In this document: one piece after another, positions 6,598 through 56,027 of the stretch
How positions within the stretch are numbered: the stretch's first letter is position 1
Layout of the letters: each line of letters opens with the position of its first letter
Source: an uncultured Saprospiraceae bacterium
Lineage (GTDB): Bacteria > Bacteroidota > Bacteroidia > Chitinophagales > Saprospiraceae
Length of the DNA stretch: 64,000 bases
Direction of reading: 5' to 3'
Assembly: GCA_937951615.1 (NCBI GenBank)
Contig: CALFBH010000004.1
Location: 63,228 to 127,227, forward strand
Notes under the pieces: generated by a model
Database searches by the model: none
What the model was told of the DNA's origin: nothing
What the model saw: only the letters and a program-made list of their open reading frames with translations
Position numbers and translations under genes: made by a program

Positions 6598-7026
6598 TCA
6601 ATGCCCGTCGCGGCGCATACTTCTGATTTGCTTCAGCTTTTCCAATGCAGCTTCATTTTTTTCCATCAGTATTGGATTGGTGTCTGGTGTGTTTTGGAGT
6701 TCAGCAATTTTAAGTTCAAAATTGCGTATCTTTCCATCTATATCTGCATAAATGCTCGGGCTGGCGTGAGATTTTAGCACAATGCCTTGCGAATTAGTGC
6801 TAGCCTGTTTTTCTTCTGCGCTTACTGCTTTTAGTGTTCGGGTTTGTTGATAGAGCGGCTGGGCAGTAGTTGCTGTTTTTTCGATTGGTTTATTTTCTTG
6901 AAGCACTTCTTTTTTGGCTGTTTTAGCAACAGGTTGAAGTGTATTTTTTTGCTGTGCAAAAGCATTGGTCGCCATAAAGCTCCAAATCATGCACAAAACA
7001 AACATATTTAAAACATATTTTATCAT
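6598..7026 (-). CDS. Small secreted hypothetical protein
   Basis: 142-aa ORF. N-terminal signal peptide MIKYVLNMFVLCMIWSFMATNAFAQQ. Low-complexity Q/K/T-rich body. No recognisable domain. Confidence 0.6.
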   Translation of the reverse strand: MIKYVLNMFVLCMIWSFMATNAFAQQKNTLQPVAKTAKKEVLQENKPIEKTATTAQPLYQQTRTLKAVSAEEKQASTNSQGIVLKSHASPSIYADIDGKIRNFELKIAELQNTPDTNPILMEKNEAALEKLKQIRSMRRDGH

Positions 7027-23001: not shown

Positions 23002-23063
23002 TTAATTACGAATTACGAATCTACGTCCAATTCGTAATTATCAGATTCGTAATTCGTAATTAA
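23002..23063. repeat. Perfect 19-bp-stem hairpin built from AATTACG heptamer words
   Basis: ttaattacgaattacgaat (23002-23020) pairs perfectly with attcgtaattcgtaattaa (23045-23063). Related copies at 40063-40135 and 50205-50252. Confidence 0.8.
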
Positions 23064-23068
23064 ACACT

Positions 23069-23614
23069 ATGAAATATATTTCCATGCTTCGCGGCATCAA
23101 TGTCGGCGGTAGAAAGAAGATCAAAATGGCTGAACTTCGGGAGATGTATGTCGCCCTTGGTTTTGAGGACGTGAACAGTTATATCCAAAGTGGCAATGTT
23201 GTTTTTGACTATAAAAAAACGAAGCCCGCTGAACTGGAAGCACAGATTAAACAAGCCATTCAGGATACTTTTGGCTTTGATGTTCCAGTACGCATCAGGA
23301 CAGCGGACGACTTTAAGCACATCATCAATAGCCATCCATTTTTTGATGCGGAGCAGGAATTGAAATTATTTCACGTTACTTTTTTGGCGGAAGCCCCAAA
23401 TACTGAAGCCCTTCAAAGCATTGCTGATTTCCAATATAAAGAAGATCTTTTTCAAATTGATGGAGACAAGATACACCTCTACTGCCCCGGAGGATATGGG
23501 GAAACTAAGCTATCCAATAATTTTTTCGAGCGTAAGCTCAAAGTTTCTGCTACAACTCGAAATTGGAAGACTGTTTTGAAATTATATGAAATGGCTATTG
23601 CGGATTGTCCATAG
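23069..23614 (+). CDS. DUF1697 family protein
   Basis: N-terminus MKYISMLRGINVGGRKKIKMAELR is the DUF1697 hallmark. Confidence 0.85.
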   Translation: MKYISMLRGINVGGRKKIKMAELREMYVALGFEDVNSYIQSGNVVFDYKKTKPAELEAQIKQAIQDTFGFDVPVRIRTADDFKHIINSHPFFDAEQELKLFHVTFLAEAPNTEALQSIADFQYKEDLFQIDGDKIHLYCPGGYGETKLSNNFFERKLKVSATTRNWKTVLKLYEMAIADCP

Positions 23615-23743
23615 TCCATAGTCCATAGTCCGCAGTCGATGGTTGTTTGATGGATAAAAAAATGAATTCATTCATTTTTCACACATTTTGCGAAGCAAAA
23701 TAACATGCATTTTCTATCGACCATGGACCATGGACTATCGACC
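23608..23743. repeat. Hairpin element E1: heptamer-word arms plus a TTTTGC-N3-GCAAAA core
   Basis: Left arm is tccatagtccatagtccatagtccgcagtcgatgg. Core is cattttgcgaagcaaaat (23684-23701). Right arm is ctatcgaccatggaccatggactatcgacc. Confidence 0.8.
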
Positions 23744-23752
23744 AAAACCAAG

Positions 23753-24571
23753 CTACCTCCCCCCCACATCCACAGCTTCATATTCAGGAAAGACAATCTT
23801 AACACCATGTTCCTGTAAAGCAGATTTAATATTTTTATACACGCCATAATAAACTGCCCAGTAATCTTCTGGCTTGGCATAAGGATAGACATCCAAATGA
23901 ATATTATATTCTCCAAAACTGCTGATTTCTACTTCGGGAACTGGTGTATCCAGCACTTTTGGCGTAGCTCGAATAGCTGCTAGAATAACGCCTTGGATGC
24001 GTTCAAAATCCTCTACATAAGCCATCATAATACTCAAGTCTATACGCACATAATCAAATGCGGAGCGATTCACAATAATACCATTGGTCACGACACCATT
24101 TGGAATGATGATTCGCTTGTTTTGAGGCGACCGGATGACGGTATTGAACACCTCAATTTCTTCAACATGCCCCAGTTTTCCTTCAATTTCTACGAGGTCT
24201 CCTGTTTTGTATGGCTTAAATAACAAAATCATCACGCCAGAAGCAAAATGCCCCAGTGTCCCCTGTAGTGCCATTCCAACTGCCAGTCCCAACATGCCCA
24301 GTAAAGCAATGAAAGACGTGGTTTCTATGCCTAGCATTCCGGCAACACTTAGTATCAATAAAACTTTAAGAATGACACTAACCAGAGAAGATAAAAAAGG
24401 AACAACATCTCCATCTAACCCTGAACGCTCCATAGAACGGCGAATGACAACCATCAGCCTGCCAATAATCCAGAGTCCGATAATTAAGACCAGAATTGCT
24501 CCTACTAAACGTGGTGCCAGGTCAATGAGCTGCCCCAGCCAAGATTCCGCTTTCTCAAGTAATAATTCCAT
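23753..24571 (-). CDS. Small-conductance mechanosensitive channel (MscS family)
   Basis: Three TM helices followed by the MscS beta-domain motif YKTGDLVEIEGKLGHVEEIEVFNTVIRSPQNKRIIIPNG. Confidence 0.88.
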   Translation of the reverse strand: MELLLEKAESWLGQLIDLAPRLVGAILVLIIGLWIIGRLMVVIRRSMERSGLDGDVVPFLSSLVSVILKVLLILSVAGMLGIETTSFIALLGMLGLAVGMALQGTLGHFASGVMILLFKPYKTGDLVEIEGKLGHVEEIEVFNTVIRSPQNKRIIIPNGVVTNGIIVNRSAFDYVRIDLSIMMAYVEDFERIQGVILAAIRATPKVLDTPVPEVEISSFGEYNIHLDVYPYAKPEDYWAVYYGVYKNIKSALQEHGVKIVFPEYEAVDVGGR

Positions 24572-30965: not shown

Positions 30966-31013
30966 AAAATGTCAAAAAGCATTAGTGGTTCAAAAAATAA
31001 AAATGCAAAAAAT

Positions 31014-31084
31014 CAACTATGGACTATCGACCATCGACTATGGACGTAAACACTTAAACTTATTCTTAAACTTAAACTTAAAAA
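31014..31084. repeat. Heptamer array (CTATGGAC/TATCGAC/CATCGAC) followed by CTTAAACTTAA words directly upstream of the 31085 start
   Basis: The sequence reads caactatggactatcgaccatcgactatggacg ... cacttaaacttattcttaaacttaaacttaaaaa. Confidence 0.75.
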
Positions 31085-31830: not shown

Positions 31831-31954
31831 CAGTCCATAGTCCGCAGTCGATAGTCGATGGCTGTTTTTTTAGTGTTCATGTCATTTCAGTATTTCATTT
31901 TGCTTTGCAAAATGTCTTATTTTTCCATCGACTATGGACCATCGACCATCGACC
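31831..31954. repeat. Hairpin element E2 (same family as E1 and E3)
   Basis: Left arm is cagtccatagtccgcagtcgatagtcgatggctg. Core is cattttgctttgcaaaatg (31896-31914). Right arm is ccatcgactatggaccatcgaccatcgacc. Confidence 0.8.
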
Positions 31955-32668: not shown

Positions 32669-34180
32669 ATGCCTATTCAAACAGGAGAAGAATATATCCA
32701 CTCTTTGCGAAATCGCAATTTAAAGGTCTATCTATTTGGCGAACTTGTGGAAGAACCCGTCGACCACCCAATGATTCGCCCGTCGATTAATGCGCTGGCA
32801 AAGACTTATGATCTTGCGGTAGCTGCTCCCGAACTCGCATCCGTCATCTCTCCATTTACTGGAAAGCGAGTCAGTCGTTTTTTACATATTTGTACCAGTG
32901 CAGATGAATTGGTTTTGCAAAACAAAATGCAACGAAAACTGGGACAATTGACTGGCACTTGTTTTCAACGCTGCGTGGGCATGGATGCTTTCAATTCATT
33001 ATACTCTGTCACCTATGAAATGGATGAACATCATGGTACAACTTATCACAAACGCATGAAGGCTTTTCTGACGATGATGCATCAGCATAATTATGTCGTT
33101 GGCGGAGCAATGACTGATGTAAAAGGCGACCGTAGCCTTGCCCCACATCAGCAGGCTGACCCTGATATGTTTGTGCATATTGTCAAAAGAAGCAAAAAAG
33201 GCGTTTGGATCAGTGGTGCAAAAGCCCATCAAACGGGTTGTATCAATTCGCACTGGATGATTGTGATGCCTACGATGCGGCTGGGCGAAGCAGATAAGGA
33301 CTTTGCGATAGTCGGTGCTGTTCCTGTGGATGCTGAGGGAATTACTTACATCTATGGTCGGCAATCCTGTGATACGCGCAGTATGGAGGGCGGCAGCATA
33401 GACGTTGGTAATGCACAATATGGCGGACAGGAAGCCATGGTTATTTTTGACCAGGTTTTTATTCCCAATGAATATATTTTCATGGATGGTGAATACGATT
33501 TTGCTGCTATGCTGGTCGAGCGATTTACAGCTTATCACCGCAGAAGTTATGTGTGCAAAACAGGGCTGGGCGATGTATTGATTGGCGCGGCGGCTTCCAT
33601 TGCAGAGATGAATGGCATTCCCAAAGCTTCTCATATCAAAGACAAATTGGTGGAAATGACGCATCAAAACGAAACTATTTATGCCACTGGAATTGCTGCA
33701 TCTCATCAGGGTTATGCGACGAAGTCGGGCAACTATATATGTGATGGTATGCTGGCGAATGTCTGCAAACATCATGTTACCAAAATGCCTTTTGAGTTGG
33801 CGCGACTCGCGCAGGATATTGCTGGCGGACTGGTTTCTACACTGCCTTCGGAGAAGGATTTAAACCATCCTGAAATTGGAAAATTATTGCATAAATACTT
33901 GCGTGGCAAAGCAGATGTAAAAACAGAAGACCGAGTTCGCATACTGCGACTGATTGAAAACTTAACGATGGGTCGTAATGCGGTGGGCTACCTGACCGAG
34001 AGTATGCACGGAGCAGGTTCGCCACAGGCACAACGCATACAGATTGGTCGGCTGATGCAATTGGAATATAAAAAAAGACTGGCAGCTATTCTGGCCGGCA
34101 TTGAAGTGGAGACGGATAAAGATTTATTAGTTGAGGAGTTATCCGGTTATTTTAAAAGAGTCTTTAAAATTTCGACATAA
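32669..34180 (+). CDS. abfD: 4-hydroxybutyryl-CoA dehydratase / vinylacetyl-CoA isomerase family (AbfD-type)
   Basis: Collinear with my recollection of Clostridium AbfD. Matching blocks are MPIQTGEEYIHSLR, VDHPMIRPSINA, TGTCFQRCVGMDAFN (Cys ligand region), GGAMTDVKGDRSLAP, YGRQSCDTR, ESMHGAGSPQAQRI. The start at 32669 is preferred. The track start 32552 extends through the hairpin repeat. Confidence 0.88.
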   Translation: MPIQTGEEYIHSLRNRNLKVYLFGELVEEPVDHPMIRPSINALAKTYDLAVAAPELASVISPFTGKRVSRFLHICTSADELVLQNKMQRKLGQLTGTCFQRCVGMDAFNSLYSVTYEMDEHHGTTYHKRMKAFLTMMHQHNYVVGGAMTDVKGDRSLAPHQQADPDMFVHIVKRSKKGVWISGAKAHQTGCINSHWMIVMPTMRLGEADKDFAIVGAVPVDAEGITYIYGRQSCDTRSMEGGSIDVGNAQYGGQEAMVIFDQVFIPNEYIFMDGEYDFAAMLVERFTAYHRRSYVCKTGLGDVLIGAAASIAEMNGIPKASHIKDKLVEMTHQNETIYATGIAASHQGYATKSGNYICDGMLANVCKHHVTKMPFELARLAQDIAGGLVSTLPSEKDLNHPEIGKLLHKYLRGKADVKTEDRVRILRLIENLTMGRNAVGYLTESMHGAGSPQAQRIQIGRLMQLEYKKRLAAILAGIEVETDKDLLVEELSGYFKRVFKIST

Positions 34181-34199
34181 ACGATAAGTAAATATTTGC

Positions 34200-34344
34200 G
34201 TCCATAGTCGATGGTCGATAGTCCATGGCTAATTTAACAATATTCCTAATTTCTACAGGTTTTATGCGCATTTTGCAAAGCAAAATGAAATACTAAAATG
34301 ACCTGATTACTAAAAAGACAGCCATCGACCATCGACTATTGACC
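34200..34344. repeat. Hairpin element E3, inverted copy of the E2 core
   Basis: Left arm is gtccatagtcgatggtcgatagtccatggc. Core is cattttgcaaagcaaaatg (34269-34287). Right arm is gccatcgaccatcgactattgacc. Revcomp of 34265-34340 matches E2 31850-31914 over ~75 nt with few mismatches. Confidence 0.8.
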
Positions 34345-34420
34345 ATTTTTGACGGGCCAGCGCCACCACAGCATTTTAGTTTTAAAGCATTGTTGTACAA
34401 GGGAAAAGCTTTTTTTATTT

Positions 34421-53898: not shown

Positions 53899-54025
53899 GT
53901 TGATTGAGTTGAATGAGAGAATGAGTAAATGAGTTGAATGAGAGAATGAGTTGATTCGGTGATTATTTGATTTTGCTTTGCAAAATCTCTTCTAATCACT
54001 CAATCAACTCAATAACCGAATCAAC
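53899..54025. repeat. Hairpin element E4: different arm words, same TTTTGC-N3-GCAAAA core
   Basis: Arms are gagttgaatgagagaatgag... and ...ctaatcactcaatcaactcaataaccgaatcaac. Core is gattttgctttgcaaaatc (53969-53987). Confidence 0.75.
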
Positions 54026-54029
54026 TTAA

Positions 54030-56027
54030 TTACATTTTCTTCAGTACAATTTGTTCCCCTTCTTTGTCGAATATCTTATCAAAAAACTCTTTCAAGCCGT
54101 CATACTCTTCTGGCTGAAATACCGGTTTGTTCAATCTTTCTTCGGAACGAAGCTGAATACGCTTGTCTTTGACTTCCACCAGATACAAATAACTACCATC
54201 GCCATCTGGCAATTTAAGCTTGATACTTTCTGGTGTAGAGACGACCTCATAACCCTCGGGAATATCAAAATTGAGGATATATTTTTCGACATAAGGATAA
54301 GCAATATCCACCGGATAAGTCCGTTTTTTGAGACTGAATACCCGTTCTTCTGTTTGTTCCATCAAAAGCGGATTGATATAAATATTGTCTCCCGATTTAT
54401 CTACTGCATCAGTAACTGTCAGTGTCATTTTTTCTACAAAACGTTTTCCAGGTTTGTCTGCGTTTTGAAATTCAGCATCTTCTACTTCGAAATCATATAG
54501 ATTGCCCAGGCGGTTTTCGATATAATCTTCCTCCTTTTCGTTTTTGTAGCTTTTACGCTTATAGCGGGCGCGATAGCCATTATATACTCCAGTAAATTCA
54601 GCTTCCGATTCATCTCCGTCCAGTTTCAGGTTGATGTTCACCAATTCATCACTGGCTTGCGGAGGCAGCGTGACCCATGCAGGATTTTTGAGGTCTTCAT
54701 CCACTAATAAGCCTTCTTTATTTAAAGATTGTGGGTGGATCATATTCGGCGACAACTCCTTATCAATGGCATCTAATAGAAACTCTTTGCCATTTACTTT
54801 CGCCAACAAAATGATGTGGTCAAATTGCTGAATAATTGGGTAAATCTTCTGTAGCTTACCATTGTCCCGCGTACTCAGCAGTACAGGATAAACTTCGATA
54901 TCGGCTGCCTGCAAACAGGCCAACAGACTCAGATTGATTGCAGTACCGTTTCCTGATTTATTCTCAAAAGCAGTATTCAGATTTTTTTCTTCCATATACC
55001 TCCAGAAATTTCCATCCCAGGAGTAGCTGTCCCGAATAAAATTAAACAAAGCCTCCATTTGTTTTTCTTTATCCGTTATACCTGCGGTAACGAGTTTAGC
55101 TGCATTCAGTATTTTTTTGTGATTGGCTTTATATTTTATCTGACGCCCGCCACTTTCGGCTTTCATCCACCTTCTTATCAGGTCGGCCCAGTCTGTCATA
55201 AATTCATCTTTTGCCCCCGCCGAATAGGGCGGCGAAGGATAATCAATGCGCGCCAACTGAAACTGTATTCTACTTCTATAGTCATCCATTGTGGTAATAA
55301 AAGACTCTTCCTCCATAGCTGGCAGGTCTTTCAGTACAAATCGAAAAGTTGTTTCTGTAGCACTAACACCAAAAGAACGGGTATTCCGACTCTCTACTTC
55401 TTTAATATCGTAGGGTTTAGTGACTCTTGATACCTGGACATATTCCATGTGTTCGGGCAATGTAAAGCGGCATTCGCTCCACTTCACAGGGATATCGCTT
55501 TGAAAATACCAGGAATCAGGAATAGCCACAAAAGGAGAATTTTGACTGTATTTATATTCTATAATCGAACCAACCCGTACATCGGGAAAAGCAAATTTAC
55601 GCGTATAGTATCGTCCGCCGTCCTGTTTTTCATCGAATACATCTTCCTTGCGTACCTTAGAAACGCCATCCGGATTAATCGTCTGTGCCTCGAACTTAAA
55701 TATTTTTTCCTTCTTATGGTAAGACATTTTTACAGACGCATCTTTCGCGCCTTCTTCAGTCAGTATTTTTATACGTATATGGCGGGTATAAACAACTTCC
55801 AAATCGTCTGATGCTTCTCGTTTCACCAAGGTCGTGGTACCATAAGAACAAAGCACGACTTTATCGGCATCGGGGTCGAGTGTATAGCTGGTCATCGCAA
55901 GGTCGTCATCAGGGACGATACCCCAGATTAATGGTGGTGCTTGTGCTTCTAGTATTGGTGTAAAAGTAAGTTGAAAAAAAATGAATAGTAGGACTAATCG
56001 AAGTCCGTTTGTAAGGAATTTTCGCAT
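54030..56027 (-). CDS. DUF3857/DUF3858-type transglutaminase-like paralog lacking the catalytic Cys
   Basis: Signal peptide ending ILEAQ. The position equivalent to GDCKA reads GNGTA (GNGTAINLSLLACLQAADIEVYPVLL). Confidence 0.82.
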   Translation of the reverse strand: MRKFLTNGLRLVLLFIFFQLTFTPILEAQAPPLIWGIVPDDDLAMTSYTLDPDADKVVLCSYGTTTLVKREASDDLEVVYTRHIRIKILTEEGAKDASVKMSYHKKEKIFKFEAQTINPDGVSKVRKEDVFDEKQDGGRYYTRKFAFPDVRVGSIIEYKYSQNSPFVAIPDSWYFQSDIPVKWSECRFTLPEHMEYVQVSRVTKPYDIKEVESRNTRSFGVSATETTFRFVLKDLPAMEEESFITTMDDYRSRIQFQLARIDYPSPPYSAGAKDEFMTDWADLIRRWMKAESGGRQIKYKANHKKILNAAKLVTAGITDKEKQMEALFNFIRDSYSWDGNFWRYMEEKNLNTAFENKSGNGTAINLSLLACLQAADIEVYPVLLSTRDNGKLQKIYPIIQQFDHIILLAKVNGKEFLLDAIDKELSPNMIHPQSLNKEGLLVDEDLKNPAWVTLPPQASDELVNINLKLDGDESEAEFTGVYNGYRARYKRKSYKNEKEEDYIENRLGNLYDFEVEDAEFQNADKPGKRFVEKMTLTVTDAVDKSGDNIYINPLLMEQTEERVFSLKKRTYPVDIAYPYVEKYILNFDIPEGYEVVSTPESIKLKLPDGDGSYLYLVEVKDKRIQLRSEERLNKPVFQPEEYDGLKEFFDKIFDKEGEQIVLKKM

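What the first reader, a model, noticed from the sequence alone, without database searches (positions are those of the whole stretch)
23608..23743. Family of intergenic hairpin elements: heptamer-word arms around a conserved TTTTGC-N3-GCAAAA palindromic core
Seen in sequence: E1 has a left arm made of GTCCATA/GTCGATG heptamers, the central core cattttgcgaagcaaaat, and a right arm of the complementary words (ctatcgaccatggaccatggac). The same architecture and core recur at 31831-31954 (cattttgctttgcaaaatg), 34200-34344 (cattttgcaaagcaaaatg) and 53899-54025 (gattttgctttgcaaaatc). A solo arm lies at 31014-31046.

No ORF, transposase or terminal target duplication is evident.

Inference: this could be a REP/MITE-like structured repeat, a protein-binding palindrome embedded in an insulating stem, or a transcription attenuator family.
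Basis: seen in the sequence. Interest (0 to 1): 0.6.

Follow-up and report, generated by a model that had tools for sequence, protein, structure and literature searches.

The report
Fold-back word-array repeats, conserved hairpin tip
A Saprospiraceae bacterium has filled the gaps between its genes with hundreds of hairpin-forming DNA repeats whose stems are runs of 7-8-letter words and whose tip is one strictly conserved 19-letter mini-hairpin; they appear to be gene-less relatives of cassettes that carry a small Avd-like protein, and what they do is untested.

Summary
TTTTGC-N3-GCAAAA occurs 5 times in the window (0.04 expected) and 385 times in the 6.96-Mb genome. It is by far the commonest 6+3+6 mini-hairpin there. 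All five sister species searched have it. About 435 other Bacteroidota genomes searched have 0-4 copies, with one unrelated exception.

The unit is an 8-bp stem with a 3-nt R-N-A loop. The inner six pairs are fixed in sequence and the outer two covary. It sits at the tip of imperfect palindromes whose arms are tandem 7-8-nt words from many families. The G/T-rich arm always comes first (142:1).

It is not a canonical terminator, a RAYT-type REP, a promoter box or a symmetric double-stranded operator.

Arrays of the same word families bracket small PF05635/TIGR02436 (Avd-like) genes in this genome and in relatives. The word tracks the protein lineage. The window copies are therefore best read as gene-less fold-back repeats closed by a genus-specific tip.

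This scan has met heptamer-armed palindromes, the G-first rule and the PF05635 link before on other DNA. Convergent heptamer arrays are published for Xanthomonas. I rate this a new variant of a known kind.

The parts
23607..23642 (+). E1 left arm: 5 tandem heptamers GTCSATR. G/T-rich, overlaps the TAG stop of the DUF1697 gene (23069-23614).
23685..23701 (.). E1 apical mini-hairpin, A-TTTTGC-GAA-GCAAAA-T (core 23686-23700)
23715..23742 (+). E1 right arm: 4 heptamers YATSGAC. A/C-rich, ends 10 nt before the stop of the convergent MscS-like gene (23753-24571, minus strand).
31833..31953 (+). E2: family A element in the opposite internal orientation. Arms 31833-31861 and 31926-31953, core 31898-31912 (loop TTT). 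Starts 5 nt after the stop of the SDR gene.
34200..34344 (+). E3: family A element with the conserved ~90-nt interior. Arms 34200-34228 and 34323-34344, core 34271-34285 (loop AAA). Starts 20 nt after the hpaB-like stop.
53899..54030 (+). E4: same core (53971-53985, loop TTT) with arms from another word family (GAATGAGT/TTGAGTT...ACTCAAT/CAACTCA). The left arm abuts the start codon of a minus-strand gene.
31012..31045 (+). Solo A/C-type family A arm (YATSGAC x ~5), preceded by a half core TGCAAAA, about 40 nt upstream of the SDR gene start. Probably a truncated element.
6947..6961 (.). Exact core TTTTGCTGTGCAAAA inside a coding region, without arms. Probably a chance or degenerate occurrence, not a member.

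Best explanation
The window elements are gene-less members of a fold-back (hairpin) repeat system with two kinds of part.

(1) The arms are tandem 7-8-nt words. The G/T-rich strand always runs 5'->3' towards the centre.

(2) The centre is an interchangeable module. Here it is a 19-nt mini-hairpin, N2-TTTTGC-RNA-GCAAAA-N2'. Elsewhere in the same genome it is a second small hairpin, a small Avd-like four-helix-bundle gene (PF05635/TIGR02436), or other cargo.

The word arrays belong to a class found in several phyla, and the word sequence tracks the lineage of the enclosed PF05635 protein. I therefore infer that the words are that protein's binding sites.

The TTTTGC tip is specific to this genus. 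Its sequence is held almost invariant while everything around it diverges. Its loop follows the rule of the extra-stable d(GC-GNA-GC) mini-hairpin. I infer that it acts in single-stranded form (DNA or RNA) as the nucleation point, and probably a recognition point, that closes the fold-back. The repetitive arms can then zip up in any register.

Copies multiply by copying, partly by hitch-hiking in an IS5-type MITE. Arms change by slippage, and elements are gained and lost fast at a given intergenic site.

Shown here: anatomy, copy number, taxonomic range, polarity, covariation, conservation, gene context, and the association between word and PF05635 lineage.

Inferred, not shown: protein binding, the single-stranded form, the copying mechanism, and any effect on neighbouring genes (for example RNase III-type cutting of the long stem, as happens for rRNA intervening sequences).
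For: Copy number and specificity:
- 385 exact cores. TTTT-XY-N3-YX-AAAA gives 385 for GC against 44 or fewer for the other non-trivial dinucleotides.
- Loop length 3 occurs 385 times, against 23 (4 nt), 12 (5 nt) and 2 (2 nt).
- All 36 single-mismatch variants together number only 136.

Genus restriction:
- The 17-mer pattern is found 221 times in this genome and 12-64 times in each of 5 sister species.
- About 435 other Bacteroidota genomes have 0-4 copies. The one exception is G115 with 19, where it is a promoter-like TAATTTTG without arrays.
- In 80 foreign loci that carry family A arms, the core occurs only in Saprospiraceae MAGs.

Discrete hairpin:
- Positions +-1 pair in 87% (A-T 221, T-A 91, G-C 20).
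- Positions +-2 pair in 74% (T-A 141, C-G 124).
- Positions +-3 drop to 22%, below the shuffle value of 33%.

Loop:
- R-N-A in 366 of 385. Position 8 is free, position 9 is A in 96%, and complementary positions 7/9 are almost absent.
- GC-GNA-GC is the extra-stable DNA mini-hairpin, and its stability depends on the C.G closing pair (PMC13037366, PMC3201870).

Island of conservation:
- In 93 family A elements chosen by their arms, stem sites differ from consensus at 1.5%, against 46% in ungapped flanks.

Polarity and modularity:
- G-rich arm first in 142 elements against 1.
- The rule is kept in 8 of 38 elements whose two arms come from unrelated word families.
- Family A arms carry the core (84 exact + 7 variants), a second 46-nt hairpin module (about 22), a PF05635 gene (1) or short junctions.
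- The core also sits inside MITEs M1 and M2.

PF05635 link:
- The genome has 12-14 such genes. At least 5 lie between a G-type and a C-type array of one word family (A, D, F and two ATTGT/G-type families).
- 3 of 9 testable PF05635 genes are in the top 1% of 4,767 genes for flank complementarity.
- Paralogues in the same word family are 91% and 66% identical. All other pairs are 24-40%.
- Orthologues 70-83% identical in sister species keep GTCSATR. More diverged ones have altered words.
- In 573 kb of foreign loci picked only by the family A word, 5 hold a PF05635 gene. Each time the best match is the A-type paralogue (57-61%), and the gene lies 6-32 nt from the array.

Gene context:
- Cores per kb of intergenic DNA: convergent 0.54, tandem 0.41, divergent 0.14.
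- In tandem gaps the core is nearer the upstream stop in 172 cases against 59.

Turnover:
- The site downstream of hpaB holds four different fillings or nothing in five species.
Against: - No binding, transcription or mobility data exist.
- The core itself was not found at the borders of the PF05635 cassettes in this genome. Its link to the protein is therefore only through shared arms.
- PF05635 genes are also common in related genera that lack the core.
- The commonest octamer family (GTGTTGNN) has no obvious cognate PF05635 gene in this genome.
- Word-protein tracking rests on a handful of lineages that are related by descent.
- The R-N-A strand shows no bias relative to replication or transcription. 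No process that exposes one particular strand is therefore implicated.
- Near-perfect conservation of the tip in old copies could mean a host-level function rather than a selfish one.
- My gene calls are crude ORF calls.
Confidence: 0.5

Rival explanations
1. Host-serving RNA element. Transcribed into the 3' UTR or an operon spacer, the long imperfect stem acts as an mRNA 3'-end protector, as an RNase III processing site, or as a non-canonical bidirectional terminator. The conserved tip would be the loop that an RNA-binding factor recognises.
For: - The elements begin at or just after stop codons. In tandem gaps the core is nearer the stop in 172 cases against 59, about 81 nt from it.
- They are centred in convergent gaps and are 3-4 times rarer in divergent gaps.
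- The symmetric design works in both reading directions.
- The tip is conserved far beyond its surroundings and across six species.
- By analogy, rRNA intervening sequences that carry PF05635 genes are cut out at their stem by RNase III (established knowledge).
Against: - There is no U-tract after the stem.
- G.U mismatches are not in excess over A.C on the sense strand (354 vs 409).
- The R-N-A loop lies on the sense strand in only 79 of 170 tandem cases, so half the transcripts would carry the weak Y-N-Y loop.
- About a fifth of elements with strongly periodic arms on both sides have non-complementary arms.
- Orthologous gaps are not conserved.
- The same position bias is expected for any insert that must avoid promoters.
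Confidence: 0.2
2. The 19-nt tip is itself a very small mobile element. It would resemble the 21-27-nt SDR hairpins of Nostoc and would insert on its own at the G-rich-to-C-rich switch point (the hairpin tip) of pre-existing word-array palindromes and of MITEs. On this view it is not the retained centre of one evolving family.
For: - The same exact core occurs in at least 8 unrelated arm families and inside two unrelated MITEs.
- The same arms occur with different centres.
- About two thirds of G->C array pairs have no core (102 of 333 have it).
- One variant has a 36-nt palindrome nested in the core's loop, at 3 loci.
- The core is restricted to one genus although the arms occur in several phyla.
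- Exact copies greatly outnumber mutated ones.
Against: - No clean filled/empty pair that differs only by the 19 nt was found. The nearest M2 comparison differs by 31 nt.
- No target duplication is seen.
- No enzyme candidate was found. The Y1/RAYT genes carry another REP, and no gene recurs next to cores.
- The Elhai et al. 2008 paper could not be read here, so this comparison rests on memory.
Confidence: 0.2
3. Double-stranded DNA binding site of a dimeric nucleoid-associated or regulatory protein. TTTTGC would be the half-site with a 3-bp spacer, and the arrays would be unrelated filler.
For: - The motif is a perfect dyad with fixed spacing (385 with a 3-nt spacer against 23 or fewer for other spacings).
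- It is strongly sequence-specific.
- It is intergenic.
Against: - The central three bases are constrained asymmetrically: R at 7, free at 8, A at 9. Self-complementary 7/9 pairs are almost absent.
- The outer two stem pairs covary rather than being fixed.
- The half-site alone is not enriched in intergenic DNA (0.43 vs 0.42 per kb).
- The motif is rarest where promoters are, in divergent gaps.
Confidence: 0.07

Closest known systems
Convergent heptamer arrays of Xanthomonas (GGGAATC) and Nostoc/Anabaena (GGGGAYT), Rehm et al. 2015, PMC4692102. Also STRR heptamers of heterocystous cyanobacteria (Mazel et al. 1990, from memory).
   Same: - Intergenic tandem heptamers, often as two arrays facing each other on opposite strands (70-75 pairs per Xanthomonas genome).
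- The G-rich strand is on the coding strand after genes and on the non-coding strand before genes.
- Arrays lie closer to the upstream ORF.
- They are rare between divergent genes.
- They are not conserved between related species.
   Different: - There is one G-run word per genome in those systems, interpreted there as G-quadruplex-forming.
- Here there are many word families without G-runs, and periods 7 and 8 are equally common.
- Here a strictly conserved 19-nt hairpin sits at the junction.
- The text passages I read report no link to PF05635 genes.
Small dispersed repeats (SDR4-6) of Nostoc punctiforme, Elhai et al. 2008, Genome Res 18:1484 (abstract recalled from memory; paper not held)
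   Same: Very short (21-27 nt) hairpin-forming repeats, supported by compensatory changes, found embedded in tandem heptamer arrays or in minitransposons. They are confined to one coherent lineage.
   Different: Different phylum and unrelated sequence. I could not check whether the Nostoc arrays flanking SDRs are inverted with a fixed polarity. Mobility of our tip on its own is not shown.
REP/REPIN elements with RAYT transposases (Bertels & Rainey 2011, PMC3116915)
   Same: High-copy extragenic palindromes, arranged as longer hairpins, lineage-specific. They are thought to act as single-stranded DNA hairpins.
   Different: The genome's Y1/RAYT-like genes are flanked by a different repeat (AAGCCCTGAAAGGGCGAAA), not by our core. 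REPIN arms are conserved sequence, not arrays of interchangeable words.
23S rRNA intervening sequences and other cassettes carrying PF05635/TIGR02436 four-helix-bundle proteins. These proteins are related to the DGR accessory protein Avd (PMC10053308) and to PDB 2GSC, XCC0516 of Xanthomonas.
   Same: A small PF05635 gene sits between inverted sequences that form a long stem. The A-type protein here matches PF05635 (115 bits), TIGR02436 (113 bits) and 2GSC (E 2.6e-15).
   Different: The window copies have no gene. The cassettes lie between protein genes, not in rRNA. The arms are word arrays. No reverse transcriptase lies next to them.
Foldback (FB) transposons of Drosophila (from memory)
   Same: Long inverted arms built of short tandem subrepeats, of variable length between copies, with a variable or absent middle.
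   Different: Eukaryotic, kilobase scale, no sequence relation. This is an analogy of architecture only.

Membership tests
REP/REPIN (RAYT-associated) | The same repeat flanks the cognate RAYT (Y1 transposase) gene | tested here: not met
   There are 3-4 PF01797 hits. Those at C38:28603 and C37:2920 are flanked by AAGCCCTGAAAGGGCGAAA hairpins. No core lies within 1.5 kb.
REP/REPIN (RAYT-associated) | High-copy, extragenic, short palindrome | tested here: met
   385 copies. About 90% are intergenic once ORF-start artefacts are removed.
MITE | Terminal inverted repeats plus target-site duplication, no coding capacity, multiple near-identical copies | tested here: inconclusive
   Met for subfamily M1, which carries the core internally: 27-nt TIR, TNAG duplication, 17-25 copies at 93-99% identity. 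Many family A copies end in GTAACAGTTTA...TAAACTGTTAC, but no duplication was established. E1-E4 show no TSD.
Intrinsic (Rho-independent) terminator | Stable stem-loop followed by a U-tract | tested here: not met
   TTTT lies within 12 nt after the hairpin foot in 7.3%, against 8.7% in controls. The T-run lies 5' and the A-run 3' of the tip, the reverse of a terminator.
Convergent heptamer-array pairs (Rehm et al. 2015 type) | Intergenic tandem ~7-nt units in two facing arrays, with the G-rich strand towards the junction | tested here: met
   TRF finds 5,156 short-period arrays. G->C adjacent pairs number 333 against 85 reversed. At cores the ratio is 142:1.
Convergent heptamer-array pairs (Rehm et al. 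2015 type) | G-tract words able to form G-quadruplexes | tested here: not met
   The words (GTCSATR, GGTGATT, GTGTTGTC, GAATGAT and others) have no G-runs.
PF05635-bracketing word-array cassette | A PF05635/TIGR02436 gene lies between a G-type and a C-type array of one word family | tested here: met
   Met for the arm families in this genome (C31:101848 family A, C10:98738 family D, C94:164 family F, C14:4681 and C42:36274 ATTGT-type/family G) and in sister species. The four window copies are gene-less.
PF05635-bracketing word-array cassette | The word sequence tracks the protein lineage | tested here: met
   Same-word paralogues are 91% and 66% identical, others 24-40%. In 5 of 5 foreign loci chosen by the family A word, the adjacent gene is A-type. 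There are few independent lineages, so this is suggestive rather than proven.
Any Rfam family | Match at the gathering threshold | tested here: not met
   0 matches in the whole 64-kb window.
Bacteroidota sigma-A promoter (-7 box TAnnTTTG) | TA two bases upstream of TTTG | tested here: not met
   Position -2 is A in only 5% of cores. The box is present in the unrelated G115 occurrences.
SDR elements (Elhai 2008) | Sequence or structure identity with SDR1-8; independent insertion shown by filled/empty sites | not testable with these tools
   The paper is not held. No Nostoc comparison was run.

The most novel reading that the evidence does not exclude
Tandem 7-8-nt words are a programmable address code read by a diversifying family of Avd-like four-helix-bundle proteins. 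Each protein lineage would bind its own word. Word arrays plus protein would form a previously unrecognised kind of fold-back mobile element that spans several phyla. The 19-nt TTTTGC-RNA-GCAAAA tip would be an autonomous ultra-small module that seeds or closes new gene-less copies in this genus.
Probability: 0.2. Interest if true: 0.8.

Novelty: new variant of a known kind. Interest (0 to 1): 0.55.

Why it matters
Short-period intergenic arrays such as STRR and the Xanthomonas heptamers have been known for 35 years without an accepted origin or function.

This genome offers an unusually clean handle on the problem:
- hundreds of copies;
- a sharply defined, covarying and almost invariant 19-nt tip;
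- an absolute polarity rule;
- a testable partner, the PF05635/Avd-like protein, whose lineage tracks the word.

If the protein does read the words, that would give a role to one of the commonest 'four helix bundle / hypothetical' families in bacterial annotation. It would explain why rRNA intervening sequences carry it. It would also explain how half of all intergenic gaps in some genomes come to be built from word arrays.

In practice these elements break short-read assemblies (contigs end in them) and distort start-codon calls.

Tried and rejected
- **Rfam.** Gathering scan of the window gave nothing.
- **RAYT/REP link.** The Y1 genes carry another REP.
- **IS110 and reverse transcriptase genes.** Present (2 and 4 copies) but not associated with cores. 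One IS110 element sits in the tip of a different palindrome.
- **Promoter -7 box.** It does not fit.
- **Uptake-signal-like half-site.** Not enriched on its own.
- **Canonical terminator.** No U-tract.
- **RNA-level pairing selection.** G.U is not more frequent than A.C.
- **Strand bias of the R-N-A loop.** None relative to transcription, GC skew or gene-strand bias.
- **A recurrent gene next to cores.** None; only giant surface proteins cluster.
- **Polarity as a pure by-product of the gene-proximal composition rule.** Arrays that are alone in their intergenic gap obey that rule only 61-69% of the time, against 142:1 at cores. It may contribute but does not suffice.
- **Strain-level presence/absence.** The only other assembly with the exact flanking protein is identical and breaks inside E1.
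- **Single-linkage clustering of copies.** Useless, because shared words chain everything together.
- **Strict periodicity calls.** They miss most degenerate arms, so the counts of homo- and hetero-armed elements are lower bounds.
- **Elhai 2008.** The paper could not be read.
Full report
**What is there**

Each has three parts:
- a left run of G/T-rich heptamers (GTCSATR in E1-E3; GAATGAGT/TTGAGTT in E4);
- a centre containing TTTTGC-N3-GCAAAA;
- a right run of the complementary A/C-rich words.

The core occurs 5 times in the window against 0.04 expected. One of the five (6947-6961) is inside a gene and has no arms. Folded as single strands, E1-E4 give -19 to -27 kcal/mol with z-scores of -4.0 to -6.4. 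The core always forms the apical stem-loop. Rfam has nothing for the window.

**Host and scale**

The window is contig C4:63228-127227 of a 6.96-Mb, 40% G+C, 142-contig genome. Its proteins are closest to uncultured Saprospiraceae (Bacteroidota) MAGs, at 91% amino-acid identity for the hpaB-like gene.

The genome holds 385 exact cores. In a census of all 3,475 perfect 6-bp-stem/3-nt-loop hairpins, TTTTGC is first with 385. The next non-trivial stem has 33.

The motif is very specific:
- Among the 16 TTTT-XY-N3-YX-AAAA variants, GC has 385. The others have 44 or fewer, apart from low-complexity TT.
- A 3-nt loop occurs 385 times, against 23, 12 and 2 for loops of 4, 5 and 2 nt.
- All 36 one-mismatch variants together number 136.
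- Compensated stem variants are rare.

**Taxonomic range**

The 17-mer ATTTTGC-N3-GCAAAAT occurs 221 times here and 12-64 times in each of the five sister species held. It occurs 0-1 times in 35 genomes of other genera and families of the order. In 400 genomes sampled across the phylum it occurs 0-4 times, with one exception. That exception has 19 copies, which are TAATTTTG promoter-like sites upstream of genes without arrays. The sister species show the same architecture with yet other words, such as TGATTTT, GTTGCGG and ATTGTGA.

**The tip is a discrete, constrained hairpin**

Pairing extends exactly two positions beyond the 15-mer, and it does so by covariation:
- +-1 pairs in 87% (A-T 221, T-A 91, G-C 20);
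- +-2 pairs in 74% (T-A 141, C-G 124, G-C 10);
- +-3 pairs in only 22%, below the 33% of shuffled partners.

The loop reads R-N-A on one strand in 366 of 385 copies (GNA 205, ANA 161). The middle base is free. Position 9 is A in 96%. Self-complementary 7/9 combinations are nearly absent.

GC-GNA-GC is the 'extraordinarily stable' DNA mini-hairpin, and its stability depends on the C.G closing pair (PMC13037366, PMC3201870).

Such an asymmetric constraint around a dyad argues against a symmetric dimer on duplex DNA. It argues for a form in which one strand folds on itself.

In 93 family A elements chosen by their arms alone, the 12 stem sites differ from consensus at 1.5%, against 46% in the ungapped flanks. 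Indels inflate the flank figure, but the contrast is large. The half-site alone is not enriched in intergenic DNA.

**The arms**

Short-period tandem arrays are a genome-wide feature. TRF finds 5,156 arrays, mostly of periods 6-9. Between 50% and 56% of intergenic gaps of at least 30 nt hold one.

At cores the left 100 nt are G>C and the right 100 nt C>G in 142 elements. The reverse is seen in 1. Because the structure is a palindrome, this means that on either strand the G/T-rich arm comes first.

Arm-to-arm complementarity is well above background (median local score 17, against 8 at random genomic positions). It is imperfect, at about 72% paired.

Of 38 elements with strongly periodic arms on both sides, 8 have arms from unrelated word families and still obey the polarity rule. 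Pairing is therefore usual but not obligatory.

Arrays that are alone in their gap follow a weaker, gene-relative version of the rule. They are G-rich on the sense strand after stops in 61% and C-rich before starts in 69% (OR 3.5, p 8.5e-15). Rehm et al. reported the same rule for Xanthomonas.

**Modularity**

The same core tips at least eight word families. It also lies inside two unrelated MITEs.
- M1 is about 205 nt, with a 27-nt TIR (GTAGTTCTTCCAGTTAATAATGTCGGG) and a TNAG target duplication typical of IS5-type transposition. It has 17-25 copies at 93-99% identity.
- M2 has the TIR TTAACCCAAGTTGAATATGTAGCCCCCAA and alternative palindromic interiors. Only some of them carry the core.

Conversely, the 131 adjacent family A arm pairs have varied centres:
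- the exact core in 84;
- a 1-2-substitution variant in 7;
- a second conserved 46-nt module (GTCGAGTGCC-TTTC-GGCACTCGAC...) in about 22;
- a gene in one;
- very short junctions in the rest.

Many family A copies are further bounded by GTAACAGTTTA...TAAACTGTTAC. One carries a nested 150-nt MITE.

**Gene context**

Using my own ORF calls (87% coding), cores per kb of intergenic DNA are 0.54 in convergent gaps, 0.41 in tandem gaps and 0.14 in divergent gaps.

In tandem gaps the core is nearer the upstream stop in 172 cases against 59. The median distance is 81 nt from the stop and 110 nt to the next start. Arms often begin in or right after the stop codon, as in E1.

Most of the 61 'genic' hits are artefacts: stop-free A/C-rich arms extend ORFs upstream.

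Four tests gave no sign of an RNA-level or strand-specific role:
- There is no T-run after the hairpin foot (7.3% vs 8.7%).
- G.U is not in excess over A.C on the sense strand (354 vs 409).
- The R-N-A strand shows no orientation bias relative to transcription (79:91).
- It shows none relative to GC skew or gene-strand bias.

**Turnover**

Downstream of the hpaB orthologue, each species has a different filling:
- this genome has E3;
- one sister species has GGATAAY arms around a core-like TTTCCGCGAAGCGAAAA;
- another has (GGTTAAT)n followed by a non-complementary (AACTATG)n;
- another has GAATGAGT arrays followed by a separate AATGTAAA-type inverted array pair;
- one has nothing.

Seventy-nine of 80 orthologous loci from wider relatives lack the core.

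**The PF05635 lead**

Notes from earlier windows of this scan said that heptamer-armed palindromes in Fibrella, a Steroidobacteraceae genome and others are gene-less forms of cassettes bracketing a PF05635 gene. I tested this here.

The genome has 12-14 PF05635 hits. At least five lie between a G-type array upstream and the matching C-type array downstream. That places them inside a hairpin, in the position the core occupies in gene-less copies. The arms are the same word families seen with cores:
- GTCSATR at C31:101848;
- GATGAAT at C10:98738;
- GGGTTGC at C94:164;
- ATTGT-type words at C14:4681 and C42:36274.

This orientation is the opposite of the weak rule for ordinary genes. Three of nine testable PF05635 genes fall in the top 1% of 4,767 genes for flank complementarity. 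At least one other small ORF, a 190-aa membrane-like protein, is also enclosed by arms.

Word and protein go together:
- The two family A paralogues are 91% identical.
- The two ATTGT-type paralogues are 66% identical.
- All other pairs are 24-40%.
- In sister species, orthologues at 70-83% identity keep GTCSATR.
- One at 65% has GTCCACA, and one at 66% has GGTTYAT.
- The D-type orthologue at 72% has GATTAAT where this genome has GATGAAT.
- In one sister species the gene is flanked on both sides by core-tipped hairpins of one word.

The family A 22-mer occurs in more than 95 contigs of Chitinophaga, Mucilaginibacter, Niabella, Chryseolinea and other Bacteroidota, and in a few MAGs labelled as other phyla. 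In 80 such loci (573 kb), five hold a PF05635 homologue. Every time the best match among the eleven G000 paralogues (one an empty, untranslatable entry) is the A-type (57-61%), and the gene lies 6-32 nt from the array. The core is present only in the Saprospiraceae MAGs.

The protein matches PF05635, TIGR02436 'four helix bundle protein' and PDB 2GSC (Xanthomonas XCC0516). The family is regarded as related to the DGR accessory protein Avd (PMC10053308).

PF05635 genes are more numerous in this genus (8-21 per genome) than in most relatives (0-6). They are not confined to it.

**Reading**

The best-supported picture is a fold-back repeat system in two layers.

The arms belong to an old class found in several phyla, tied to Avd-like proteins. 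The words are probably those proteins' binding sites. This is inferred from co-variation only.

The centre is interchangeable. In this genus the dominant centre is a 19-nt mini-hairpin held under strong constraint, with the signature of a structure that forms in a single strand.

I cannot tell whether the tip is the retained centre of one evolving superfamily or a tiny element that inserts on its own at hairpin tips, as the Nostoc SDRs are thought to do. I also cannot tell whether the host uses the stems, for example for RNase III-type processing.

**Novelty**

Convergent heptamer arrays, STRRs, SDRs, REPINs and MITEs are all known. This scan has met heptamer-armed palindromes, the G-first rule, conserved tips and the PF05635 link before on other DNA.

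New here are the Saprospiraceae case, the sharply defined R-N-A-looped tip shared by many word families, the hetero-armed elements, and an independent test of word-protein tracking.

My literature searches found no description of the tip or of the PF05635-word link, but the library searched is incomplete.

Noticed in passing
L089 (G000:C38:28603-28941) and L090 (G000:C37:2920-3258), outside the window: Two Y1-transposase (RAYT-like) genes are each flanked by a different hairpin repeat, AAGCCCTGAAAGGGCGAAA...CAGCACAGGGCAACGCCCTGTGAAACC. This looks like a classical REP/RAYT pair in a Saprospiraceae genome.
   Followed up: partly
G000:C4:33524-35276 (outside the window): An IS110-family element (DEDD transposase at 33966-34412) is inserted exactly in the tip (CCATGGTTAAAAC|CATTGG) of a core-less M2 MITE palindrome. 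This fits the known taste of the family for hairpin and REP targets.
   Followed up: partly
G000:C14:63397-63604 and about 20 other sites: MITE 'M1': about 205 nt, 27-nt TIRs, TNAG target duplication, 93-99% identical copies. Several contigs end in it. It carries a core-tipped hairpin as internal cargo.
   Followed up: yes
G000:C14:61440-61590 and about 77 other sites: A ~150-nt MITE 'M3' (TIR GGTAGTACTCGACTAAAGTATG...) is found nested inside a family A element.
   Followed up: no
G000, about 22 sites, e.g. C23:2718, C3:22264: A second conserved centre for family A arms: a 46-nt module GTCGAGTGCC-TTTC/GAAA-GGCACTCGACTAAATGCTCTTTATGTCCTG (8-bp stem, tetraloop, asymmetric tail).
   Followed up: partly
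L167 (G000:C84:65050-66110): A 190-aa membrane-like ORF without a Pfam match lies between GGTGATT-type arms that match each other (score 48, the highest among genes lying inside a G->C arm pair). Arms can therefore enclose cargo other than PF05635.
   Followed up: partly
G000: C12:115076, C134:31, C23:97255: A core whose 3-nt loop is replaced by a 36-nt palindrome (TTTTGC-GGATGTAGCGATAATTCATGAATTATCGCTACATCC-GCAAAA). It looks like a nested insertion at the tip.
   Followed up: no
L114-L118 (genome G115, another family of the class): Nineteen copies of the same 17-mer, but as TAATTTTGC-NNN-GCAAAAT about 30-40 nt upstream of start codons without arrays. This looks like a Bacteroidota -7 promoter box with an overlapping palindromic operator and is unrelated to the repeat family.
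   Followed up: partly
window 23004-23061: AATTACG/AATTCGT heptamer arrays lie between the OmpA-like and DUF1697 genes, just upstream of E1. This is another word family without the core (TRF rows).
   Followed up: no
whole genome: Stop-free A/C-rich arms let ORFs run upstream of true starts. 775 of 4,851 crude ORF calls needed trimming, so automated annotation of such genomes probably mis-sets many start codons.
   Followed up: partly
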